Notes: generated by a model from the sequence alone, not told the origin. A DNA stretch of 64,000 nucleotides from Parcubacteria group bacterium M6-OD1-1 (GCA_003056085.1 LSNK01000004.1:28326-92325), one strand, 5' to 3'; positions 24,576-57,933 are shown, counted from the stretch's first letter. A program made the numbers and translations.

Positions 24576-24618
24576 ATTGTGATATTATTTATATTGATAA
24601 TATAAATAATATCACAAT
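24576..24618. terminator. 19-bp perfect inverted repeat with 5-nt loop (terminator or operator)
   Basis: ATTGTGATATTATTTATAT-TGATA-ATATAAATAATATCACAAT. Lies between the copA stop and the permease start. Confidence 0.45.
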
Positions 24619-27221: not shown

Positions 27222-27229
27222 AATAAAAC

Positions 27230-27258
27230 AAAAAATCCGCTTTAAGCGGATTTTTTGT
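27230..27258. terminator. bidirectional terminator
   Basis: AAAAATCCGC-TTTAA-GCGGATTTTTT. Serves cspA on the minus strand and the small ORF on the plus strand. Confidence 0.6.
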
Positions 27259-27282
27259 TTTTGCTATAAAAATTTTATAGTC

Positions 27283-27780: not shown

Positions 27781-30700
27781 ATGCCAAAAATTAAAAATGT
27801 TTTCATTCTTGCATCCCTATTAGCAGTTTTTATCTTAATCCCAACAGGAATATTAAATGCTCAAACCGCTCCAACAAACGGACTAGTGGGATACTGGACG
27901 TTTGATGAAGGGTCAGGAACAACAGCAAGTGATTCTTCTGGTAATGGAAATACAGGAACTCTTACAAACGGACCAACGTGGACAAGTGGGCAAATAGGCG
28001 GTGCTCTTTCATTTGATGGGGTGAATGATGTTGTGGAGATAGATTCTGTTTCTTCTTTAAAACCATCAACTGTAATCACTGTTTCTGCATGGGTTAAATT
28101 AAAAGTGGATGCAACCGCTTTTAATGCATATATTATTGCCTTTGATAATATTAACTATGCTTATCATTTAAGTTGGACTGATGCAGCCCCTGATAGATTT
28201 ATATGGAGAGTAAGAAATACTAATGGTGTAAAAGAAGCCTCTTACAAGATTAACCCAAAAGGTGTATGGGTAAATGTGGTAGGTACTTTTGATGGAACAA
28301 CTCAAAAAATTTACACGGATGGCGTAGAAAGAGATTCGATAGCAGTGTCCGGGAATATTGATTATACTTTTGCTAGTCAATTAAATATAGGTGCGCAACG
28401 TAAATCTAATATATGGGATGGCACCATCGACGACGTCCGCATCTACAACCGCGCTCTTTCTACCACAGAAATAGCTGATATATACAATGCGGGGATAGGT
28501 GTAGGAACCGTCACGACCTATCAATGCTCAGACTCTATAGACAATGACTCCGACGGACTAACAGACTATCCCAACGACCCGGGATGTACATCTACAACTG
28601 ACAACGATGAATATAACGCAGTCTCAGACACAACCCCACCAACAACCCCAACCAACCTTCAAGCAACAACAAACTCATCATCACAAATCTCTCTAACATG
28701 GAGTGCATCAACAGACAACACAGCAACAGCAGGCTACAGAGTATACAGAAACGGAACACAGATAACCACAACAACAAACACTTCATACACAGACAACAGT
28801 CTTTCTGCAGGAACGTTATACACATATACAGTGTCGGCATACGACGCCGCAGGAAACGTTTCATCACAATCAACAAGTGTTAGCGCTGCTACAAATATAA
28901 CCATATCAACAAAATTTAACATAAACGACACAATAGAAGTCTCCACAAGAGATGGCTCAAGTCTCAACGTACGCGGAACTGCAAATGGAATACTACTGGG
29001 TCAACAATTAAACGGAAGACGAGGAATTGTCATAGGAGGGCCAACCGTAGCCGGAGGATTAATATGGTGGAATATAAACTTCAATAATGCTCCTGATGGA
29101 TGGGTGGCAGAAGGATATATTACTGCGTCATTGATTTCAGGAAATTCAATTACAATTGGGACATTAGAATCTGACCCTCCAACTATCAAAAATTTAGGAG
29201 TCTCCCTCCCTATTATCAGTGGTGATAATAATTATAATGCACAAGCTTTTGTTTCTTATCGGAAGCAGGGGGTTTCTGCTTGGAATGAAGGATTGCCATT
29301 GCTACGTGTTCGTCCAGATAAACTTAGTACCGATACACAATTATTCACAGTTGTAAATCAATTTGCTGGTAGTATATTTAACTTAGAGCCAGATACTTCT
29401 TATGAGTTTAGAGTTCGAGTTGTGGATTCAGATGGTGTTAATGGTAACAGTTCTCAAATTATTACAATGCATACCAGGCCATATCCTAAAGCTAATCCTC
29501 TTGTAGCACGAATTGTGAATGTTTCAACTATGACCGAGTTGAGGTCAGCCGTAGCTTCTGCTAAACCTGGAGACGTAATCACGTTAGCTAATAATACATA
29601 CAACGGTTCTATCACTATTAATAATAGTGGTACTGCAGATAATCCTATTATTCTTCGTGGGCAGTCTCAGGTCGGTGTGATTATTGATGCTTCGGGCGCG
29701 TTAGGGGGTATTGATATTGCCGCCTCACATGTATATGTAGAAAACCTTACTGTAACAAGCAGTGATTATGGAATTCGTATGCCATCTGATGCTATTGACG
29801 TAGTTGTTCGTTTTACTCGATTAACAAATGTAAATAAAGGTATTAAAGCTAAGAATTATTCTCATCGAAACTTTTATATTTGTGACAATGTACTTGAAGG
29901 CAAATCGGTCTGGCCGGACACAAGTAAAGCTACTTGGGATATGGAAGGTATTGTCATAACAGGTAGCGGTCATGTGGTTTGTAATAATACACTTTCAGGT
30001 TTTGGGGATTCAATCGGGTTTTCTAGATACACTAATATTCCCAACTTGGCAAATGATTTTTATGGAAATGAAGTTTTGTGGGGTGGCGATGATGGAATTG
30101 AATTAGATGAAGGACAGCGTAATATTCGTGCTTATCGAAATCGGATTTTAAATACAGCTTCAGGCATCAGTATGCAACCAGTTTGGGGTGGACCAACTTA
30201 TATTTTTCAGAATATATTTTATAACCAGAAAAATGCACCATACAAATTAAATAATGCACCGAGCGGATTCTATATTTTTAACAATACAGCAGTACGAGTG
30301 GGTTGGGCATGGAAACAATATTCCAACCGAATCATGAATTTCCAGTTTTTTAATAATCTAACAGTTGGCACAGATAATGGCGTCGATATGTCTTCTGTGG
30401 TTACGTTGGGCGAAATTGATTATAATGGCTGGTATCCAGATGGACAATTTAGATTTGGTACACGCTGGAACAGTTTCAGTGATTTACAAGCGAGATCACC
30501 ATTTGAAACAAATGGTCGGCTTTTAACTTCGTCAATATTTCAGAACGATATACCTATTCTCACTGAGACAGCTCCAGATAAGAACACTTTCAGAGCCCCA
30601 GTTAATTTAACTCTCTCTTCTGTCTCCAATGCAGTTGATGCTGGGCGTTTATTGCCAAATATTAATAATGACTATATTGGGAGTGGGCCTGATCTTGGTG

Positions 30701-33231
30701 CTTTAGAGCGTGGGAAACCTGTACCGATTTATGGTGCTCGGACTTTTGATACAACTGCTCCAACAACGCCAATAATAATAAAAGCTAAAGCGATAAGTGG
30801 TTTCCAGGCCGATCTTTCTTGGACTAAGTCAGTGGATCCCGATAGTGGAATTTCAGGTTATAATATTTATCGCAATGGACTTAATATTGGTTTTACTTCA
30901 CAGACAAATTATCGTGATAGTGGGTTGCAAGAGTTTGCTAATTATAGATATCAAGTCTCTGCTATAAATAGATCTGGACTCGAAGGGTCTAAGAGCATCG
31001 TAGTAAATACCACAACATCAGGAGATATAACTCCTCCTAGAATTGAATCAGTAAATGCTGCTACGGATTTAAATAAAGTGACGGTTGTGTTTAGTGAGCA
31101 ATTAAATTCAATTGATGCTCAGACAGTAAGTAATTATAGTATTAATAATAATATTCAAATTATTGGAGCGGTACTGGAGAATAACCAAACCACTGTAACT
31201 CTAACAACGACAAGTTTGAGCAAGGGGATAAATTATACGCTTACAGTTAACAATATTACTGATAGTTCTGTTGCACGAAATATGATTATTCCCAACAGTC
31301 AAGTATATTTTACTTATATTGCAACCCTATTAATTAGTGATATATTTCCTGCAACTTATCAGAGGGATAGTTTAGTTGAAAAAAAAGAAGTCTACATTGA
31401 TAGAACCTATACCTATACGAACGTGCCATCAAGCTTTAAAAATTTTAATTATCTTCGTACTGCTAATAATGATAAGTCAGCGACTGGTGGTAATTTTCTA
31501 TCATTCACTGTAAATCAACCAGTTACCGTGTATGTAGCATATGATGTACGAATCTTAACGAGACCTTCATGGTTATCTTCTTGGGTAAGTGTCGGTGCTC
31601 AATTAAAGACTACAGATACCACTCTACGATTATATAGAGCGGACTTTTCAGCTGGCACAGTAACTCTTGGAGGGAATGAGGGTGGTGGAGGTAGTATGTA
31701 TACGGTTTTGGTGTCTCCTTACACAGGAGAAAGTGTCATCTCAACTCCACAACCTACTCCGACACCAGCCGACACCACTCCACCAACCATAACCACCCCA
31801 ACCATCACAACCACAATAAACTCAGCAACGATAACCTTCACAACAAACGAAACAGCAACAGCATACATAAACTACGGTCTGTCTTCAGCATACTCAAGCC
31901 AAACAAACACACATCAAGGCGCCACTCACACATTCACACTATCTAACCTCTCAGACAACACAACATATAATTATCGAACAACAGCAGCAGACCAAGCAAA
32001 CAATACAACCCAATCAATAAACAGAACATTCACGACAAAACAAGCAATACAACAAGACACAACGCCACCATCACAAACAACAAATCTATCGTCATCAAAC
32101 ATCACACAAACATCTGTTGACCTAACATGGACAGCATCAGGAGATAATAATATGCAAGGACAATCATCAAGCTACGACATAAGATATTCAGCAACACCGC
32201 TAACAAACACAAACTACACACAAGCAACTCAAGCAACAGGAGAACCAACACCAAAACAAGCAGGACAAACAGAAACAGCATATATTGCAGTCGGACTCCA
32301 ACCAAACACAACATACTACTTTGCTCTAAAAACAACAGATGAAGCAAACAACACATCACCACTTTCAAACATCATCACAATAACAACATTAGACACACAA
32401 ACACAACAAGAAGAAACACAATCAACAGGTAGTGGTTCATCAGGTGGAGGTACACAACACTCATCATCAGGAAGCACACAAACATCATCAGGCGGAGGCG
32501 GAGGAGGAATATTCACCGACACAACCCCTCCAAAACAAGCATCCAACACAACAACAGAGTCAGCAGACAGACAGATAACTCTAAAATGGAACAACCCCAA
32601 AGACAACGACTTTGCACGTATAATCATAATCAGAAAAGAAGGTTCAAAACCAACATCACAAACAGACGGTACTACAATATACGAAGGAACAAACGAAGAA
32701 TACACAGACATCAACCTAAACAACAACAAAAAATACTACTACGCAATATATACCTACGATAAAAAACCAAACTACTCATCACCAATATACATAGAAGCAC
32801 AACCAAAAGAAGGAAAGACACAAATACAAACAAAATCAACCCCCATCAAAGAAGGAGATCTAATCCGAGGCCCGGACGGCATCAAAGTATACATAATCAA
32901 CCAATACGGATACAAACGCCATATATTCAACCCCGTAGTCTTTGAAATGTACGGACATCTTAAATGGGAAGACATCAAAGAAGTCTCCCAACAAACATTA
33001 GACTCCTTTACCACCTCAGACTTTTATCAAGCAGAGAACGATTACAGAGTATTCTCCCTAAAAGAGATAAACGAAAAAGAAGGATTCGCCCAAAAACGAT
33101 GGATGAACCTTCCCGCACAACGATTTCTCTCACTCGGATACAACTGGAAACAAGTATTCACCATAAACGAAAAAGAAAGAGATTATTACCAAGAAGGAAC
33201 TCCTTTAACTGAGCAGGAGTTGGAGAGGTAG
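27781..33231 (+). CDS. giant secreted surface protein: LamG-like + FN3 repeats + right-handed beta-helix + Thr/Gly-rich linkers
   Basis: Signal peptide. LamG_3-type N-domain (GLVGYWTFDEGSGTTASDSSGNGNTGTL...ALSFDG). Multiple FN3-like units (TPPTTPTNLQA...GYRVYRNG; ISGYNIYRNG). Parallel beta-helix/pectate-lyase-like region (NPIILRGQSQ...). T-rich and GGGGGG linkers. Confidence 0.8.
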   Translation: MPKIKNVFILASLLAVFILIPTGILNAQTAPTNGLVGYWTFDEGSGTTASDSSGNGNTGTLTNGPTWTSGQIGGALSFDGVNDVVEIDSVSSLKPSTVITVSAWVKLKVDATAFNAYIIAFDNINYAYHLSWTDAAPDRFIWRVRNTNGVKEASYKINPKGVWVNVVGTFDGTTQKIYTDGVERDSIAVSGNIDYTFASQLNIGAQRKSNIWDGTIDDVRIYNRALSTTEIADIYNAGIGVGTVTTYQCSDSIDNDSDGLTDYPNDPGCTSTTDNDEYNAVSDTTPPTTPTNLQATTNSSSQISLTWSASTDNTATAGYRVYRNGTQITTTTNTSYTDNSLSAGTLYTYTVSAYDAAGNVSSQSTSVSAATNITISTKFNINDTIEVSTRDGSSLNVRGTANGILLGQQLNGRRGIVIGGPTVAGGLIWWNINFNNAPDGWVAEGYITASLISGNSITIGTLESDPPTIKNLGVSLPIISGDNNYNAQAFVSYRKQGVSAWNEGLPLLRVRPDKLSTDTQLFTVVNQFAGSIFNLEPDTSYEFRVRVVDSDGVNGNSSQIITMHTRPYPKANPLVARIVNVSTMTELRSAVASAKPGDVITLANNTYNGSITINNSGTADNPIILRGQSQVGVIIDASGALGGIDIAASHVYVENLTVTSSDYGIRMPSDAIDVVVRFTRLTNVNKGIKAKNYSHRNFYICDNVLEGKSVWPDTSKATWDMEGIVITGSGHVVCNNTLSGFGDSIGFSRYTNIPNLANDFYGNEVLWGGDDGIELDEGQRNIRAYRNRILNTASGISMQPVWGGPTYIFQNIFYNQKNAPYKLNNAPSGFYIFNNTAVRVGWAWKQYSNRIMNFQFFNNLTVGTDNGVDMSSVVTLGEIDYNGWYPDGQFRFGTRWNSFSDLQARSPFETNGRLLTSSIFQNDIPILTETAPDKNTFRAPVNLTLSSVSNAVDAGRLLPNINNDYIGSGPDLGALERGKPVPIYGARTFDTTAPTTPIIIKAKAISGFQADLSWTKSVDPDSGISGYNIYRNGLNIGFTSQTNYRDSGLQEFANYRYQVSAINRSGLEGSKSIVVNTTTSGDITPPRIESVNAATDLNKVTVVFSEQLNSIDAQTVSNYSINNNIQIIGAVLENNQTTVTLTTTSLSKGINYTLTVNNITDSSVARNMIIPNSQVYFTYIATLLISDIFPATYQRDSLVEKKEVYIDRTYTYTNVPSSFKNFNYLRTANNDKSATGGNFLSFTVNQPVTVYVAYDVRILTRPSWLSSWVSVGAQLKTTDTTLRLYRADFSAGTVTLGGNEGGGGSMYTVLVSPYTGESVISTPQPTPTPADTTPPTITTPTITTTINSATITFTTNETATAYINYGLSSAYSSQTNTHQGATHTFTLSNLSDNTTYNYRTTAADQANNTTQSINRTFTTKQAIQQDTTPPSQTTNLSSSNITQTSVDLTWTASGDNNMQGQSSSYDIRYSATPLTNTNYTQATQATGEPTPKQAGQTETAYIAVGLQPNTTYYFALKTTDEANNTSPLSNIITITTLDTQTQQEETQSTGSGSSGGGTQHSSSGSTQTSSGGGGGGIFTDTTPPKQASNTTTESADRQITLKWNNPKDNDFARIIIIRKEGSKPTSQTDGTTIYEGTNEEYTDINLNNNKKYYYAIYTYDKKPNYSSPIYIEAQPKEGKTQIQTKSTPIKEGDLIRGPDGIKVYIINQYGYKRHIFNPVVFEMYGHLKWEDIKEVSQQTLDSFTTSDFYQAENDYRVFSLKEINEKEGFAQKRWMNLPAQRFLSLGYNWKQVFTINEKERDYYQEGTPLTEQELER

Positions 33232-34059: not shown

Positions 34060-34142
34060 AAATATATAAAGAAATCAAAAAACTCAACTTTTAAGTTGAG
34101 TTTTTTGATGAATTAATTTAAAAGCTTGTTTGTGTAAATAAT

Positions 34143-45531: not shown

Positions 45532-45603
45532 GGCCCCTTCGTCTAGTGGTTAGGACACATCCCTCTCACGGATGAAACAGGGGTTCAATTCCCCTAGGGG
45601 CTA
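45532..45603 (+). tRNA. tRNA-Glu (anticodon CUC)
   Basis: Hand-folded cloverleaf. Acceptor GGCCCCT/AGGGGCT, anticodon stem CATCC/GGATG with loop CTCTCAC (U33, CUC, A37), T-arm AGGGG-TTCAATT-CCCCT. No encoded CCA. Confidence 0.7.
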
Positions 45604-45610
45604 CTATCAA

Positions 45611-45658
45611 AACACCAAAAGCTCCGAAATTAATTTCGGAGCTTTTGGTGTTTTTTTT
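45611..45658 (+). terminator. 19-bp perfect stem terminator after tRNA
   Basis: AACACCAAAAGCTCCGAAA-TAA-TTTCGGAGCTTTTGGTGTT followed by T8. Confidence 0.7.
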
Positions 45659-45687
45659 GGTATATATTTACTGCACGATACTAATTT

Positions 45688-45747
45688 AAAACAACCCAAT
45701 GACAACTTTGGGGACGGTCGTCCCCAAAGTTGTCATTGGGTTGTTTT
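45688..45747. repeat. 27-bp perfect inverted repeat hairpin
   Basis: AAAACAACCCAATGACAACTTTGGGGA-CGGTCG-TCCCCAAAGTTGTCATTGGGTTGTTTT. Confidence 0.6.
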
Positions 45748-45858: not shown

Positions 45859-47004
45859 ATGATAAAAATAATTCACACAGGAGATTTGCATCTTGGGGCT
45901 AAGTTCAGCTCTTTTGGCAAGAAGTCCGGCAGTCAAAGGCGGGCTCTTTTGGATTCTTTTAAAAAAGTGATTGATGAAGCCATTTTAAAAAATGCTCATT
46001 TGGTTTTGATAGCGGGAGATCTTTTTGATTCTAATTTTCCTGCCTATGAAACTGTCAATTTGGTAAAAAGTGAACTGAAAAAATTAGACGAAGCAAAAAT
46101 ATTTACTGCAATTTTGCCGGGGACGCACGACTGCCTTTCTGTTGATTCAATCTACAAAAGAGAGAACTTTGCAGAAGGTCTTTCTCATATTTATATTTTT
46201 GATAATGAAAATATAACATCTAAGTTTTACCCTGAGCTTGATCTTGTTTTGTATGCTCAGGCAAATACTGCCAATAAATCTTTAAAAAGTCCTTTGGATT
46301 TTCTAAAGTCCTCTGATGAGGAGCACAAAAACGCAAAATACAAAATCGCCATGGCACATGGGTCTGTTCAGATAGAGGGTAAGTCCGCAAAAGATGATTG
46401 GCCTATAACTTTAGGGGAAATATCAAAGTCTGATATGCAGTACATTGCGTTGGGTCATTGGCATGGAGCTCAGGATTTTTCTTTTGGTTCAACAAAAGCT
46501 TGGTATTGCGGTTCCCCGGAGATTACCTACAAAGAAGGGAAAGGCGGACTGGGGCAAGGATATGCCATTGAAGTTGATATAACGGACAATGTGGAAGTTA
46601 AGCCTTTTTTGATTACTGATAAAAAAATTGAAGAGCTCAGTTTAGACATTGGTATGTTTTCTGATATTGGAGCAGTTTATAAAGAAATAGAAAACAAGGC
46701 CGGGGAAAATATTATTTTAATTTTAAATATTTCAGGAATTGCGAATCCGGATATGTTTTTGGATAAAGAAAAACTTAAAGAGGATCTTTCAGATAAATTT
46801 TTCAGCGTTACAATAAAAGATAATTCTTCACCCGGAGTGGACAATATTTTAGAAAGAGAGTATCCGGAAGATATGGTTTTGGGGCAGTTTATAAGACTGA
46901 TGCGGGACAAGATAAATTCAGCCCAAAATGAAGACGAAAAAAGGATTACAGAAGAAGCTTTGCAAATAGGAGTAGCTGAGCTGGAAGGAAAAGAAGTAAT
47001 TTAA
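45859..47004 (+). CDS. SbcD/Mre11-family metallophosphoesterase nuclease
   Basis: Calcineurin-like motifs I-V: GDLHLG, GDLFD, GTHD, AHGS, GHWHG. Confidence 0.75.
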   Translation: MIKIIHTGDLHLGAKFSSFGKKSGSQRRALLDSFKKVIDEAILKNAHLVLIAGDLFDSNFPAYETVNLVKSELKKLDEAKIFTAILPGTHDCLSVDSIYKRENFAEGLSHIYIFDNENITSKFYPELDLVLYAQANTANKSLKSPLDFLKSSDEEHKNAKYKIAMAHGSVQIEGKSAKDDWPITLGEISKSDMQYIALGHWHGAQDFSFGSTKAWYCGSPEITYKEGKGGLGQGYAIEVDITDNVEVKPFLITDKKIEELSLDIGMFSDIGAVYKEIENKAGENIILILNISGIANPDMFLDKEKLKEDLSDKFFSVTIKDNSSPGVDNILEREYPEDMVLGQFIRLMRDKINSAQNEDEKRITEEALQIGVAELEGKEVI

Positions 47005-47176
47005 TAAGTATAAAGTAAAAAGTTTAAAGTAAACGACAATGAATAATACGCAATATAAAAAATGGAAAAGGTTTTAATTTAGAGGTGATAGAATGAATTA
47101 TTTAATTTAAAATTTATTTTTTAATATTATATATTTCAATTTTTAACTTTTTACTTTCGACTTTTAACCTACCAAT

Positions 47177-49255
47177 ATGTATTTAAAATCAATAACAGTT
47201 AAAAACTTTAGAAAATTCAAAGATTTTTCAATTAATTTTCCTTCGGATATTACGGTTATTAAAGGACCGAATGAAAAAGGAAAATCAACCATACTTTCTG
47301 CCATTTTAGCAGGATTTTTCTATGATCCAAAAAAATCAAACAGAGAGATAGATGCTTTAAAATCGTGGCATTCAGACCAATTATATGAAATGAGGCTTGA
47401 GATTGAAAATGACGGCAATGAGATTGTTCTTGAGAAAAATTTCAATGAAAAAGAGATGCTTCTTGAAAATAAAACAACAGGCGAGAAGATAAAAAATTTC
47501 AAAGATATATCCGATTATTTATACAAAATAGGTTCGTTAAGGTCTCTTTCCTTATTTGAGAATACGGCTTGTGTTAAACATGACGCTCTTTCTTTGATAA
47601 CTCAAGGAAAACGGGAGATATCCCAGGCTTTGCAAAGCCTACTTACTTCGTCTTCTGAAAATGTTAGTCCTGATAAAATTATAAAAAAAATTAATGATCT
47701 TTTAACGGAAATACAAAAAGGTTTAAAACAGCCATCAAAAACTCCCGGAGTTTTAAAGGAGATAGAAAGCAATATACTTGAGCTTGAAGACAAAAAGTCA
47801 AAACTTAAAGCTGAGTTGGATGATGTTTCAAAAAAATCAGATTATTTAGGTTCTATTCAAACAGAATACAACAATCTCAAAGAAAAGTTTGATATTAAAT
47901 TTCGCCAGTATGAAATGAATAAGAAATATTTTCAAACAATAAAAGAGCTGGAAAGTTTAAGCTCTCAATTTAAAAAAATAGAAAGTGATATTGAAGTTCT
48001 TGAAGAATTGGAAAAAAATAAAGAATATATTTTATTTCAGCTCAAAAAAATGAGCTTTCTTGAAGGATTTGACATAAGAGAGTTTTACAAAAAGGTAAAT
48101 AATCTTAAAGACAAAGAAGCAAAACTTCAATACTTAAAAAAATATTATAAAAATACAAAAGAAACAGAATCAAAAAAGGGTAAAAACAGCTTTTTTCTCA
48201 TGGGTCTTTTTGTGGCGTTTTTTATCGTCGGGTTTTTAGGATTTTTAGAACCTTGGCTATTCTCATCTTTTGCTATTTCAATTTTATTTTTTATTTTAAA
48301 TTTTGTTTTCAAGAAAAAAAGCTCAGAAAGCAAAAAAATAAAAACAGTTAAAGACATAAAAATTTTAGAAAAAGAAATTGATTTTTTAAGTGATGAAATA
48401 AATTTAATATTTGAAAAAAGCCATATAAAAAATGACAAAGAACTCATTGATAAAATAAAAGAATATAATGAATTTTGCAAAGAGTTGGAAAAAACAGAAA
48501 GTAAGGAAGAGGGGATACTGAGAGGATTTAGCTTTTCTGATGTTAAAAAAGAAAAAAGCAGTATTTTGAAAAATATAGGAATTTTAGAAGAAAAAATTTC
48601 GGAGGAGCAAAAGGTAAATGTTCCAACTCCGCAAGAACAGCGTCTCTTGGAGGTTGATTTGGAAAAATATGACAAAAAATTGGATGATTTAAAAAAAGAA
48701 ATACTGCAGGTTTCTGCTGTGTCAAATCAATATGCTATAGATAAAGAGAATATAATAAAGTTGGAGGAGGACTTGGAGTTTGAAAAAGAAAAGAAATTGA
48801 ACTTTGAGAAAAAAGTTAAAGTTTTAGAGTCTTTAGCTGAGAATTTAAAAGAAGCTCAGTCAAGAATACTGTCAAAGTCCAAGTCTCATATTGAAGATTA
48901 TATGAAAAAATATCTTATAACCATAACAGATGGAAGGTATGATAATATGAAGGTGAACGATGATCTTTCTTTTAATGTTTGGTCTGAAGAAAAAAAAGAT
49001 ATGGTTGTTCCGGAAGACCATCTTTCGCAGGGAACAGTAGACCAATTTTATCTTGTAGCGAGGTTTGCTATTTTGGACGTTTTAAATAAGGGAAATAAAT
49101 CTTTGGTTTTACTTGATGATCCTTTTCACTCTTTTGATTCAAAAAGACGAGAAAAAACCAAGCAAGTTTTAAATGACTTAACAGATAGATTTCAAATAGT
49201 GCTTTTTTCTCACTCCTCTGATTATGATGATTGGGGAGAAGTGGTTGAGATATAA
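47177..49255 (+). CDS. SbcC/Rad50-like ABC ATPase with central transmembrane hairpin
   Basis: N-terminal Walker A GPNEKGKST. Long coiled coils. Two hydrophobic TM helices at the coiled-coil apex (FFLMGLFVAFFIVGFLGFL, WLFSSFAISILFFILNFVF) in place of a CxxC zinc hook. Signature-like LSQGT, and Walker B/D-loop LVLLDDPFHSFD. Confidence 0.6.
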   Translation: MYLKSITVKNFRKFKDFSINFPSDITVIKGPNEKGKSTILSAILAGFFYDPKKSNREIDALKSWHSDQLYEMRLEIENDGNEIVLEKNFNEKEMLLENKTTGEKIKNFKDISDYLYKIGSLRSLSLFENTACVKHDALSLITQGKREISQALQSLLTSSSENVSPDKIIKKINDLLTEIQKGLKQPSKTPGVLKEIESNILELEDKKSKLKAELDDVSKKSDYLGSIQTEYNNLKEKFDIKFRQYEMNKKYFQTIKELESLSSQFKKIESDIEVLEELEKNKEYILFQLKKMSFLEGFDIREFYKKVNNLKDKEAKLQYLKKYYKNTKETESKKGKNSFFLMGLFVAFFIVGFLGFLEPWLFSSFAISILFFILNFVFKKKSSESKKIKTVKDIKILEKEIDFLSDEINLIFEKSHIKNDKELIDKIKEYNEFCKELEKTESKEEGILRGFSFSDVKKEKSSILKNIGILEEKISEEQKVNVPTPQEQRLLEVDLEKYDKKLDDLKKEILQVSAVSNQYAIDKENIIKLEEDLEFEKEKKLNFEKKVKVLESLAENLKEAQSRILSKSKSHIEDYMKKYLITITDGRYDNMKVNDDLSFNVWSEEKKDMVVPEDHLSQGTVDQFYLVARFAILDVLNKGNKSLVLLDDPFHSFDSKRREKTKQVLNDLTDRFQIVLFSHSSDYDDWGEVVEI

Positions 49256-49381
49256 TAGAATTTTCAAAACTGAGTGCAGTTTAAGATGAAAGCGAGAGAC
49301 GAAAGAAGCTGTACTAAAAAATATAGTGAATTGAGACTCGCAGTTTTCAACGAAAAAATGCACCAGTTTTGAAAATTCTAT
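49255..49381. repeat. 18-bp perfect terminal inverted repeats flanking ~91 bp
   Basis: AATAGAATTTTCAAAACTG at 49255-49272 and CAGTTTTGAAAATTCTAT at 49364-49381. Confidence 0.4.
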
Positions 49382-49405
49382 AATCGTTTTTAATTATCAA
49401 AATAA

Positions 49406-49780
49406 ATGAAAGTGGTTTTATTTTTTAAAAATATAATAGAGAGTATAAAAAAATCACTTTTTTTAAGAGATCCGTTTGTTTGGGGGATGATTTTTTTGAG
49501 TATCTTGTTTTTTGCGGCATTTTTATATTATACAAAATTGAAATTAAACGATTTTAAAAATGTGGCGGATGCATCTTTAACGGGTATTGGGTATGAATTT
49601 ATTTCAGACGGGGGCAGTTTATATCAAATTCCTATTTTTGTAGCTATTTTCTCAATTTTAAATATTATAGGGTCAAAAATTGTTTATAATTATGATGTCT
49701 TGGCGTCCTATGTTTTGATTGTTTCCGTTCCCATTTTAAATGCTTTGTATTTTTTCGGAGCTTTTGTATTTTTGTCCTAA
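49406..49780 (+). CDS. membrane protein, hypothetical
   Basis: 3-4 TM helices. Confidence 0.4.
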   Translation: MKVVLFFKNIIESIKKSLFLRDPFVWGMIFLSILFFAAFLYYTKLKLNDFKNVADASLTGIGYEFISDGGSLYQIPIFVAIFSILNIIGSKIVYNYDVLASYVLIVSVPILNALYFFGAFVFLS

Positions 49781-49799: not shown

Positions 49800-50036
49800 C
49801 TTTTGCAAGAAAATACCTTAGTATAAGGATTAATTAAATATATAAACCGTAGACAAGGGGCTGTTCTCAGTGAGAGCATTAAGACCTCTCGAGGTGGAAT
49901 AAAGCTATTTTTAGCTTTTTATTTCCCATTTGAGTCTGCGATCTTAAAAAGGTCGTTTTTTATTTATTTTTTGAAATTTTTAGTTTATGGGAGTCTTAGT
50001 TTTTTCTAAGGATCTAATAAATTAAAAATTAAAAGT
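49800..50036 (+). promoter_or_regulatory. rplJ 5' leader (probable L10/L12 autoregulatory region)
   Basis: About 230 nt non-coding upstream of rplJ with hairpin potential. Assignment is by position. Confidence 0.35.
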
Positions 50037-50567
50037 ATGGCTTTAACCAGAAAACAAAAAGAAGAAATTTTAGCTTCAGTAAAAAAGAAGTTAAAAGATC
50101 AAAAGTCTGTAATTTTCACAGATTTTACAGGTCTTTCTGTTTCTAATTCAAGCAGCTTAAAAAGAAAGCTGAAAGAAACAGATACAGAATATAAGGTTGT
50201 CAAAAAAAATATTTTGGCAAGAGTCATAGAAGATTCCGACATAAAAGGAATTGACGTTAAAGACTTTGAAGGTTCTATGGGTGTTGCTTTCTCTTATGGT
50301 GATGAAGCCGCTCCTGCAAAAATTATTTATGACTTTTCTCAACAAAAAGATGTCGGAGAATTTAAAATTTTAGGAGGTATTTTAAGCGGCAAAGCGATAT
50401 CTGCCGATGAAGTTACAGCCTTAGCTAAACTTCCTTCAAAAGATCAGCTTTATGCAAACTTATTTGCACAAATAAATGCTCCTGTTTCCGGTTTTGTAAA
50501 TGTGCTTGCGGGCAATATTAAGAATTTAGTTTACGTGTTAGACGCAATAAAAGAATCCAAAGCATAA
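50037..50567 (+). CDS. rplJ: 50S ribosomal protein L10
   Basis: MALTRKQKEEILASVKKKL N-terminus. Followed by rplL. Confidence 0.85.
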   Translation: MALTRKQKEEILASVKKKLKDQKSVIFTDFTGLSVSNSSSLKRKLKETDTEYKVVKKNILARVIEDSDIKGIDVKDFEGSMGVAFSYGDEAAPAKIIYDFSQQKDVGEFKILGGILSGKAISADEVTALAKLPSKDQLYANLFAQINAPVSGFVNVLAGNIKNLVYVLDAIKESKA

Positions 50568-57853: not shown

Positions 57854-57885
57854 ATATTTAAAATTCAAAGTTGCAAAATAAATAA

Positions 57886-57912
57886 AAAAAGCGGCCATTG
57901 TGGCCGCTTTTT
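57886..57912. terminator. bidirectional terminator
   Basis: AAAAAGCGGCCA-TTG-TGGCCGCTTTTT. Confidence 0.65.
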
Positions 57913-57933
57913 GATTTTACGTTTTTACGCGAT

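What the first reader, a model, noticed from the sequence alone, without database searches (positions are those of the whole stretch)
45859..49255. Membrane-anchored SbcD/SbcC-like (Mre11/Rad50-like) pair adjacent to a tRNA
The 381-aa protein carries all five Mre11/SbcD phosphoesterase motifs. The downstream 692-aa protein has Rad50/SbcC-like N-terminal Walker A and C-terminal signature and D-loop regions, separated by coiled coils. The coiled-coil apex holds two consecutive transmembrane helices where a CxxC zinc hook would normally sit. The ATPase is also about 300 aa shorter than typical SbcC. A membrane-tethered Mre11/Rad50-like machine resembles B. subtilis YhaO/YhaN-type proteins and some anti-phage nuclease modules. 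The location is also suggestive: just downstream of a tRNA and two long hairpins, with an 18-bp inverted-repeat element and a small membrane protein following. That context fits a defence or membrane-proximal DNA-processing role better than canonical hairpin repair.
Basis: partly seen in the sequence, partly recalled or inferred. Interest (0 to 1): 0.65.

Follow-up and report, generated by a model that had tools for sequence, protein, structure and literature searches.

The report
Membrane-anchored Mre11/Rad50-like repair pair (SbcEF/YhaON)
This is a real gene pair for a DNA-end-cutting nuclease and a Rad50-like ATPase whose coiled-coil tip is a membrane-spanning hairpin, but it belongs to the large, known and little-studied SbcE/SbcF (YhaN/YhaO) family and sits among housekeeping genes, so it is an ordinary member rather than a new defence system.

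Summary
ORF 45859-47004 encodes a 381-aa Mre11/SbcD-type phosphoesterase with all metal-binding motifs; motif III reads GTHD rather than GNHD. ORF 47177-49255 encodes a 692-aa Rad50-like ABC ATPase with two coiled-coil arms, two hydrophobic helices (aa 338-377) at the apex and no CxxC hook.

The apex hairpin is not special to this locus. It occurs in 141 of the 146 best cluster representatives and in 65 of 70 genomic loci from many bacterial and archaeal phyla. Those loci include a Virgibacillus yhaO-yhaN-yhaM operon. The C-terminal head half matches Bacillaceae YhaN at 99.9% profile probability. The pair is therefore a Patescibacteria (Azambacteria-like) member of the SbcE/SbcF family.

The defence reading is not supported. 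Neighbours are housekeeping genes (UvrA, mraZ, rsmH, PBP, murF; rplJL, atp). The murF-tRNA-Glu-pair synteny recurs in relatives. No Lamassu partner, plasmid match or phage match was found. The upstream hairpins look like terminators.

The most likely function is a membrane-tethered DNA-end-processing complex for break repair and/or incoming DNA.

One minor new point: a conserved 3-helix membrane protein (49406-49780) follows the ATPase in this lineage.

The parts
45859..47004 (+). SbcF/YhaO-like Mre11/SbcD-family phosphoesterase (381 aa), predicted soluble
   Evidence: Passes Pfam Metallophos. Sub-threshold SbcD/Mre11 NCBIfam hits; the S. aureus SbcD model aligns over residues 2-365. PDB SbcD 7dog at E 2.4e-13. 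Catalytic motifs conserved in 78 relatives; motif III is GTHD. Minimum Hessa sum is +11.
47005..47176 (+). AT-rich 172-nt spacer between the two genes, with an imperfect inverted repeat (47006-47028 / 47141-47163)
   Evidence: The RNA fold is not significant (z -1.5). The spacer is absent in relative L093, where the gap is 3 nt.
47177..49255 (+). SbcE/YhaN-like Rad50-type ABC ATPase (692 aa): head 1-157 plus 584-692, two coiled-coil arms, apex hairpin
48188..48307 (+). Codons for the two apex hydrophobic helices (aa 338-377), the predicted transmembrane hairpin with a short E-P-W turn
   Evidence: Hydropathy. Hessa sums of -3.4 and -0.7. AF2 helices at 338-356 and 359-377. K/R-rich flanks. Conserved in homologues.
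49252..49384 (+). Structured inverted-repeat element (21-nt arms, 91-nt spacer) that starts within the ATPase stop codon. Probably a lineage-specific insertion, not part of the machine.
   Evidence: RNA fold -47.1 kcal/mol, z -8.9. No Rfam family. Absent in L093, L002 and L090.
49406..49780 (+). Small membrane protein (124 aa; N-terminal helix plus three long hydrophobic helices), a conserved third gene in Azambacteria-like genomes
   Evidence: Homologues directly follow the ATPase in L001, L002/L003, L089, L090 and L093, in different flanking contexts. The family has 45 clusters and no Pfam match. AF2 pLDDT is 79 with no PDB fold match.
45532..45604 (+). tRNA-Glu(CTC): context only, part of conserved murF-tRNA synteny
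45609..45747 (.). Two perfect palindromes (45609-45654, 45688-45747) flanked by A and T runs. Probable bidirectional terminators after the tRNA; context only.

Best explanation
The locus encodes the Patescibacteria (Candidatus Azambacteria-like) version of the SbcE/SbcF (YhaN/YhaO) complex, a distinct branch of the Mre11-Rad50/SbcCD family.

Shown from sequence: an Mre11-type two-metal nuclease and a Rad50-type ABC ATPase are encoded side by side. The ATPase has two antiparallel coiled-coil arms of roughly 140-200 residues. That would put the head at most about 20 nm from the apex. In place of the zinc hook the apex carries two hydrophobic helices joined by a 2-3 residue turn and flanked by Lys-rich segments.

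Inferred: the hairpin inserts into the cytoplasmic membrane with both flanks in the cytoplasm. The ATPase head and the bound nuclease dimer then hang from the inner face of the membrane. Hairpins of two protomers probably pack together and do the dimerising job of the zinc hook. As in Mre11-Rad50, ATP-driven head engagement would clamp DNA ends and license the nuclease to trim or open them.

The most likely cellular role is constitutive processing of DNA ends near the membrane. That means double-strand-break repair and/or handling of DNA entering through the competence machinery, as reported for B. subtilis SbcE/SbcF. The small membrane protein encoded next to it may be a lineage-specific membrane partner (inferred from gene linkage only).
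For: Homology. Rad50 and Mre11/SbcD are the closest solved relatives by sequence and by fold.

Family membership. PF13514 (YhaN-type AAA_27) scores 34.7 bits against a cut-off of 22. A 64%-identical homologue is named 'uncharacterized protein YhaN' by JGI. BLASTP against Oceanobacillus YhaN gives E 5e-18. hhalign against Bacillaceae YhaN gives 99.9% probability, E 1.3e-35. Both share the signature LSxGTxDQxY..R.A and LDD(P/A)F..FD..R. Virgibacillus locus L057 is nuclease - 1008-aa ATPase with a central hydrophobic block - YhaM equivalog at 517 bits.

Apex hairpin. Hydropathy, Hessa sums, AF2 helices and K/R-rich flanks all agree. It is conserved in 22 of 23 close-to-distant homologues, in 65 of 70 genomic loci and in 141 of 146 top representatives. 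No zinc hook was found: the only central C..C, in L047, lies inside the hydrophobic block.

Partner nuclease. It lies directly upstream in 56 of 70 loci, with a gap of 3 nt or less in 37.

Housekeeping character. The family has 14,023 clusters at E<=1e-30. The neighbours are UvrA, mraZ, rsmH, PBP, murF, rplJL and atp. The same synteny is seen in L001 and L093. There is no compositional anomaly. A distant hydrophobic-apex homologue sits in a NurA-HerA-Mre11-Rad50 resection operon.

Published function. In B. subtilis, sbcE mutants are sensitive to double-strand breaks and transform less well. SbcE and SbcF localise to the poles of competent cells in a ComK-dependent way. The central domain is hydrophobic, insoluble and lacks CxxC (PMC2811018).

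Competence in this phylum. Com genes and type IV pili are widespread in Patescibacteria, and ComEC-dependent transformation has been shown in Saccharibacteria (PMC10633639).
Against: Membrane insertion is predicted only. No dedicated TM predictor was available and no experiment exists.

The B. subtilis paper describes SbcE-YFP foci on nucleoids that move from pole to pole within a minute. It does not report a peripheral membrane signal.

The Walker B catalytic Glu is Asp (LLDD) throughout the family, so ATPase kinetics may differ from Rad50.

Motif III has Thr in place of the metal-binding Asn.

The apex sequence itself is not conserved between Patescibacteria and Bacillaceae; only its hydrophobic character is.

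The whole genome could not be checked for canonical SbcCD, AddAB, RecBCD or ComEC.

Pfam AAA_15 scores as well as AAA_27, so Pfam alone does not decide the family.
Confidence: 0.75

Rival explanations
1. Anti-phage or anti-plasmid defence module: a membrane-tethered SMC-like ATPase plus nuclease that destroys foreign DNA as it enters the cell.
For: The full-length PADLOC hit to an LmuB model scores 64.9 bits, E 2e-18. Lamassu LmuB structures appear among the Foldseek hits. SMC-like ATPase plus nuclease is a common defence design (general knowledge). There is a weak hit to an anti-phage phosphoesterase model at 16 bits.
Against: No LmuA or LmuC-like partner is present; the partner is an Mre11/SbcD homologue. 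The N-terminal-only hits to PtuA, GajA and AriA reflect the shared P-loop. The flanks are housekeeping genes and synteny is conserved in relatives. The tRNA is part of that synteny. Architecture is uniform across thousands of clusters and many phyla. There is no match on plasmids or phages. The B. subtilis phenotypes are in repair and competence.
Confidence: 0.08
2. An ordinary cytoplasmic SbcCD-type complex in which the hydrophobic apex is a buried protein-protein dimerisation core, a hook substitute, rather than a membrane anchor.
For: Reported SbcE-YFP foci lie on nucleoids and are mobile. The AF2 confidence of the apex helices is only 49-72. The apex sequence is poorly conserved between phyla.
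Against: The apex has two stretches of about 19 residues of Phe/Leu/Ile/Val with a KD maximum of 2.64 and a negative insertion free-energy estimate. Median block length is 45-49 aa, which fits two membrane spans. The flanks are K/R-enriched as expected for cytoplasmic flanks. The protein and its central domain were completely insoluble in E. coli.
Confidence: 0.08
3. A dedicated processor of imported DNA. Tethered beside the ComEC channel, it would trim or degrade incoming DNA for recombination or for nucleotide salvage in a bacterium that cannot make nucleotides. Chromosome repair would be secondary.
For: SbcE and SbcF show ComK-dependent polar localisation, and the B. subtilis mutant transforms less well. 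Com and type IV pilus genes are widespread in CPR bacteria, which lack nucleotide synthesis. Membrane tethering fits an entry-site role.
Against: ComEC delivers single-stranded DNA, whereas Mre11-Rad50 acts on duplex ends (general knowledge). comEC, comF and dprA were dispensable for growth of a Saccharibacterium, which argues against salvage as their role. The family also occurs in many phyla and archaea not known to be competent. One member sits with NurA-HerA resection genes. No com gene lies next to the locus.
Confidence: 0.12

Closest known systems
B. subtilis SbcE (YhaN) / SbcF (YhaO); Pfam PF13514 AAA_27, COG4717
   Same: The gene order is nuclease then ATPase. The head is Rad50-like with the family signature LSxGTxDQ and LDDxF..FD..R. 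There are two coiled-coil arms and a central hydrophobic domain without CxxC. The nuclease is SbcD-like with the same motifs (PMC2811018).
   Different: It is about 270-310 aa shorter (692 aa against 981-1008 aa in Bacillaceae), so the coiled coils are shorter. No yhaM follows; a small 3-helix membrane protein gene follows instead. The apex sequence differs, with a GFLGF motif here. Motif III is GTHD.
Canonical Mre11-Rad50 / E. coli SbcCD
   Same: It has the ABC head fold, antiparallel coiled coils, an Mre11 phosphoesterase partner with a capping-domain-length C-terminal region, and adjacent genes.
   Different: There is no CxxC zinc hook; a hydrophobic hairpin takes its place. The signature is SQGT instead of SGGE/Q. 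Walker B reads DD instead of DE. Scores are far below the NCBIfam equivalog cut-offs: 55.7 against 700 for Rad50 and 67 against 77.65 for SbcD.
Archaeal NurA-HerA-Mre11-Rad50 resection operon
   Same: A distant homologue with the same hydrophobic apex (P0041, locus L005) is encoded in exactly this operon arrangement.
   Different: The window has no NurA or HerA next to the pair.
Lamassu LmuB (defence SMC-like ATPase)
   Same: It shares the SMC-like head plus coiled-coil fold. The PADLOC LmuB model aligns end to end at 64.9 bits, and Foldseek hits 9hqx and 9uxh.
   Different: There is no LmuA effector or LmuC. The partner is Mre11-like, the context is housekeeping, and the apex is a membrane hairpin.

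Membership tests
SbcE/SbcF (YhaN/YhaO) family | Rad50/SMC-like ABC head split between the N and C termini, with Walker A, signature and Walker B/D-loop | tested here: met
SbcE/SbcF (YhaN/YhaO) family | Specific sequence relationship to Bacillaceae YhaN (from a locus that also carries yhaM) | tested here: met
   BLASTP E 5e-18. hhalign 99.9% probability, E 1.3e-35 over 158 C-terminal head columns. YhaM equivalog in L057. Only the head halves align; the coils and apex do not.
SbcE/SbcF (YhaN/YhaO) family | Pfam PF13514 (AAA_27) above the gathering score | tested here: met
   34.7 bits against a cut-off of 22. Caveat: AAA_15 (35.9) and AAA_23 (32.0) of the same clan also pass.
SbcE/SbcF (YhaN/YhaO) family | Central hydrophobic domain between two heptad-repeat arms, with no CxxC hook | tested here: met
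   Family-wide. Described for SbcE in PMC2811018.
SbcE/SbcF (YhaN/YhaO) family | SbcD-like nuclease gene immediately upstream on the same strand | tested here: met
   Present in 56 of 70 related loci.
SbcE/SbcF (YhaN/YhaO) family | yhaM exoribonuclease gene downstream (a feature of the Bacillus operon, not of the protein family) | tested here: not met
   The downstream gene is a 124-aa membrane protein with no family.
SbcE/SbcF (YhaN/YhaO) family | Physical nuclease-ATPase complex, and a role in double-strand-break repair or competence | not testable with these tools
   Only published B. subtilis data are available.
Canonical SbcCD / Mre11-Rad50 | CxxC zinc hook at the coiled-coil apex | tested here: not met
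   Cys occurs only at positions 132 and 434. No zinc hook in homologues; the single central C..C (L047) lies inside the hydrophobic block.
Canonical SbcCD / Mre11-Rad50 | Score above the NCBIfam SbcC/SbcD/Rad50/Mre11 cut-offs | tested here: not met
   Rad50 PRK03918 scores 55.7 against 700. The sbcd model scores 67.0 against 77.65. Mre11 models score 60-67 against 500-550.
Canonical SbcCD / Mre11-Rad50 | Mre11 phosphoesterase motifs I-V | tested here: met
   Motif III has Thr in place of Asn.
Lamassu (LmuA-LmuB[-LmuC]) | LmuB-type SMC ATPase | tested here: inconclusive
   PDLC03859 scores 64.9 bits end to end. Coiled-coil and P-loop similarity is generic, and Rad50 profiles match better.
Lamassu (LmuA-LmuB[-LmuC]) | Adjacent LmuA effector (and LmuC) | tested here: not met
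   Neither neighbour matches any Lmu model. The nuclease has only an 18-bit generic effector hit.

The most novel reading that the evidence does not exclude
The zinc hook of Mre11-Rad50 has been replaced, across a family of more than 14,000 clusters, by a membrane-inserted helical hairpin. These complexes would then work as membrane-bound DNA-end processors. In Azambacteria-like Patescibacteria the hairpin would additionally dock onto a dedicated small three-helix membrane protein (49406-49780). Together they would form a three-part membrane complex that links DNA entry or membrane-attached chromosome ends to end resection.
Probability: 0.2. Interest if true: 0.6.

Novelty: new member of a known kind. 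Interest (0 to 1): 0.3.

Why it matters
For this window it matters little. The pair is a routine, vertically inherited member of a very large family, and the defence reading can be dropped.

The wider point is about the family. SbcE/SbcF rests on essentially one experimental paper, which described the central domain only as hydrophobic and insoluble. The survey here shows that a two-helix hydrophobic apex without a zinc hook is the rule from Patescibacteria to Bacillota, Chloroflexota and archaea. If the hairpin really is a membrane anchor, a major branch of Mre11-Rad50 machines works tethered to the membrane. That would bear on how bacteria handle broken or incoming DNA.

The compact 692-aa patescibacterial form and its linked small membrane protein could be convenient subjects for structural work.

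Tried and rejected
Literature. Searches for YhaN/YhaO, SbcE/SbcF, COG4717/PF13514 and 'transmembrane + Rad50/SbcCD' found only the 2009 B. subtilis paper and one citing paper. Nothing on membrane anchoring was found.

Rfam. At gathering and at permissive thresholds it gave no family for the two upstream palindromes (only chance-level sRNA/miRNA hits below cut-off) or for the 49252-49384 inverted repeat.

Inverted-repeat arm. It has no other copy in the window, so a repeated mobile element could not be shown.

Nuclease-ATPase spacer. Its RNA fold is not significant.

Plasmids and phages. tblastn of the ATPase gave no match.

Small protein. It has no Pfam, NCBIfam or PADLOC family and no PDB fold match. 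The afdb50 library was unavailable.

Downstream partners in other phyla. Other phyla have unrelated downstream genes. By eye, the Chloroflexota ones look like multi-pass transporters. Others are YhaM, SpoIID-domain and Rce1-like genes. There is no universal third partner.

Paralogues. No paralogue of either protein lies in the window. Whether a canonical SbcCD or AddAB is encoded elsewhere in the genome could not be checked.

Considered and rejected. Lamassu, Gabija, Septu and PARIS membership was rejected because only the P-loop region or generic SMC similarity matches. tRNA-linked island integration was rejected because the tRNA is syntenic with murF in relatives.
Full report
**What is there**

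The window is AT-rich (about 33% G+C). In the part examined (about 22-57 kb) the genes lie on the + strand and are housekeeping genes. At the stated coordinates there are two long ORFs on the + strand. One runs 45859-47004 (381 aa) and the other 47177-49255 (692 aa). A 172-nt AT-rich spacer separates them, and a 124-aa ORF follows at 49406-49780. Close homologues, up to 99% identical, come from metagenome assemblies. Where named, they are from Candidatus Azambacteria or the Patescibacteria group.

**The nuclease**

- It passes Pfam Metallophos.
- It gives sub-threshold but consistent SbcD/Mre11 NCBIfam hits. The S. aureus SbcD model aligns across residues 2-365.
- Its best solved relatives are SbcD (7dog, E 2.4e-13) and archaeal Mre11.
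- In an alignment of 78 relatives taken from related loci, D9, H11, D54, H90, D91, H167, H200 and H202 are nearly invariant.
- Motif III reads GTHD here. Thr at this position is a recurrent family variant (28 of 78, against Asn in 42 of 78), not a local defect.
- The protein has no hydrophobic segment.

**The ATPase**

- Walker A is GPNEKGKS, the signature is LSQGT, and Walker B/D-loop is LLDDPFHSFD.
- It passes Pfam AAA_27 (the YhaN-type domain), AAA_15 and AAA_23.
- A profile of it and its homologues hits archaeal Rad50 head structures at E about 1e-40, over both the N- and C-terminal halves.
- An AlphaFold2 model built on 42 sequences (pLDDT 84.5) has a split head (1-157 and 584-692). Long helices 192-291 and 300-329 lead up and several helices lead down. 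Two short helices, 338-356 and 359-377, sit at the turn.
- Foldseek places Rad50 (7zr1) first, followed by Smc5/6, archaeal Rad50, Lamassu LmuB and SbcC.

**The apex**

- Residues 338-377 are FFLMGLFVAFFIVGFLGFL-EP-WLFSSFAISILFFILNFVF.
- The Kyte-Doolittle maximum is 2.64.
- Summed Hessa-scale values over 19 residues are -3.4 and -0.7 kcal/mol, with no other window below +1. The scale values were recalled from memory.
- The 15-residue flanks carry 5 and 7 Lys/Arg. That fits both flanks being cytoplasmic and the short turn facing outward.
- There is no CxxC.

**Is the hairpin special to this locus? No.**

- Among 23 homologues down to 16-25% identity, 22 have the central hydrophobic block and none has CxxC.
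- A scan of one genome per species with the family alignment gave 80 loci. They come from Chloroflexota, Armatimonadota, Actinomycetota, Bacillota, Hydrogenedentota, Bathyarchaeota, Archaeoglobaceae and others.
- With my own ORF calling, 70 of these loci have a full-length ATPase. Of those, 65 carry a hydrophobic block at mid-length. The Mre11-like nuclease lies immediately upstream in 56, with a gap of 3 nt or less in 37.
- A profile search of 1.84 billion representative proteins found 14,023 clusters at E<=1e-30.
- Of the best 146 representatives, 141 have the central block (median 49 aa, centred at 0.51 of the length). None has a central CxxC.
- Flanks are enriched in Lys/Arg family-wide: 3.1 and 3.7 per 15 residues against a background of 2.3.

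**Family membership**

- The Virgibacillus locus L057 has a 412-aa nuclease, a 1008-aa ATPase with a hydrophobic block at 478-518, and a gene that passes the YhaM equivalog model (517 bits against a cut-off of 460). This is the yhaO-yhaN-yhaM operon of Bacillaceae.
- The window ATPase aligns to Oceanobacillus YhaN at E 5e-18.
- The patescibacterial profile aligns to a Bacillaceae YhaN profile at 99.9% probability, E 1.3e-35, over the C-terminal head half.
- The two share the signature LSxGTxDQxY..R.A and LDD(P/A)F..FD..R. These differ from the Rad50 motifs LSGGE and DE.
- JGI names a 64%-identical homologue 'uncharacterized protein YhaN'.
- The only experimental paper found (PMC2811018) describes SbcE (YhaN) as SbcC-like. 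It reports a unique central domain that is hydrophobic, insoluble and lacks CxxC. SbcE interacts with the SbcD-like SbcF (YhaO). The paper reports roles in double-strand-break repair and transformation, and ComK-dependent polar localisation.

The window pair is therefore a compact member of this family, about 300 aa shorter than the Bacillaceae proteins.

**Context and the defence idea**

- Neighbours are UvrA, MraZ, RsmH, a PBP and MurF upstream. Downstream lie a near-threshold L10 leader, rplJ, rplL and the ATP synthase genes.
- The arrangement murF - tRNA-Glu(CTC) - nuclease - ATPase - small protein recurs in L093, whose ATPase is 63% identical. It recurs in L001 (64% identical) with an IMPDH gene inserted. 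The tRNA is thus conserved synteny, not an integration scar.
- In more distant Azambacteria-like genomes the module sits elsewhere, near SIMPL and GroES/EL, again among housekeeping genes.
- PADLOC gives an end-to-end LmuB hit (64.9 bits). The neighbours match no Lmu model, and the other defence-model hits cover only the P-loop.
- No plasmid or phage match was found, and base composition is unremarkable.
- The two perfect palindromes after the tRNA have A-runs and T-runs on their flanks and match the terminator pattern on both strands. Similar long palindromes occur elsewhere in the window.

Together these results do not support a defence role.

**Supporting a repair role**

One distant homologue with a hydrophobic apex (P0041) lies in a NurA-HerA-Mre11-Rad50 operon, the classical end-resection set.

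**Mechanism proposed**

- Shown: the domain architecture, the motifs, and the gene linkage.
- Inferred: the hairpin inserts in the membrane with both flanks inside the cell. Two hairpins pair and replace the zinc hook. The head and nuclease hang at most about 20 nm below the membrane. ATP-dependent clamping of DNA ends then licenses the nuclease, as in Mre11-Rad50.
- The likely role is repair of breaks and/or processing of DNA at the entry site. Com genes and type IV pili are widespread in Patescibacteria, and ComEC-dependent transformation has been demonstrated in Saccharibacteria (PMC10633639).

Points against, or still open:
- Membrane insertion has not been tested experimentally.
- The published SbcE-YFP foci were described on nucleoids and as mobile.
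- The invariant Asp in place of the Walker B Glu suggests altered ATPase kinetics.

**A small new point**

The 124-aa protein at 49406-49780 has an N-terminal helix plus three long hydrophobic helices (AF2 pLDDT 79). Homologues sit directly after the ATPase in L001, L002/L003, L089, L090 and L093, across at least three flanking contexts. The gaps there are short or overlapping. In L089 the pair ATPase - small protein persists even though the upstream gene is not Mre11-like.

The family has 45 clusters, all unnamed or from Azambacteria. It has no Pfam domain and no PDB fold match. Eight of its contig lengths coincide with contigs that carry ATPase homologues. It was not found in the 80 loci from other phyla. 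It may be a lineage-specific membrane partner, but this rests on gene linkage alone.

**Verdict**

The YhaO/YhaN comparison is right and amounts to membership. The defence and context inferences are not supported. Novelty: a new member of a known kind. Interest is modest (0.3). The value lies mainly in documenting that the hook-to-hairpin replacement is family-wide.

Noticed in passing
window 49406-49780: A small membrane protein (124 aa, no known family) is a conserved third gene after the ATPase in Azambacteria-like genomes, in several flanking contexts. In L089 it stays with the ATPase even though the upstream gene is not the nuclease.
   Followed up: yes
window 49252-49384: An inverted repeat with 21-nt arms and a 91-nt spacer starts inside the ATPase stop codon. 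It folds very strongly (-47.1 kcal/mol, z -8.9), has no Rfam family and is the only copy in the window. Relatives L093, L002 and L090 lack the spacer. L001 has a different 21-nt inverted repeat with a 186-nt spacer at the same junction. It may be a small inserted element or an RNA-processing or stability structure.
   Followed up: partly
window 47005-47176; L001 9931-9994: The nuclease-ATPase junction also carries lineage-specific inserts. The window has a 172-nt AT-rich spacer with an imperfect 23-nt inverted repeat. L001 has a 32-nt near-perfect palindrome. L093 has only a 3-nt gap, and many other phyla have 4-nt overlaps.
   Followed up: partly
window 45609-45654 and 45688-45747: Two perfect palindromes (23-nt arms with no loop; 29-nt arms with a 2-nt loop) sit right after tRNA-Glu. 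They are the longest in the window. They have the same A-run/T-run style as other long palindromes at 516-562, 24576-24618, 27225-27261, 34063-34120 and 57879-57919, and are probably bidirectional terminators.
   Followed up: partly
window 49829-49971: A ribosomal protein L10 leader (RF00557) match scores 42.5 bits, just under the gathering score of 44, upstream of rplJ (50037-50567).
   Followed up: no
L005 3950-10744: An operon NurA - HerA - Mre11-like (381 aa) - Rad50-like ATPase (683 aa) with a hydrophobic apex (aa 326-361) - Rce1-like membrane protease. This is a hairpin-apex Rad50 inside the classical archaeal-type end-resection operon. The organism was not identified.
   Followed up: partly
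P0039/L092 3001-5430; P0099, P0104, P0168, P0178, P0187: A sub-group of about 800-aa homologues lacks the central hydrophobic block. In L092 the pair follows a very large AAA_11/AAA_12 helicase with a Top1-type zinc ribbon.
   Followed up: no
window 47177-49255 (aa 646-647) and family alignments A1/A3: Walker B reads LLDD, with an invariant Asp where Rad50 and SMC proteins have the catalytic Glu. The signature motif is S-x-G-T rather than S-G-G-E/Q. Both are family-wide.
   Followed up: partly
L015, L016, L017, L019, L024, L027, L033, L051 (downstream of the ATPase): In Chloroflexota and Limnocylindria loci the gene after the ATPase is a 250-300-aa protein with 6-8 hydrophobic spans that looks transporter-like by eye. 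It was not checked against families.
   Followed up: no
window 27781-33231: A 1816-aa protein with Laminin_G_3, fn3 and Ig-like domains, probably a surface protein, lies in a stretch where GC skew drops to about zero (26-34 kb).
   Followed up: no
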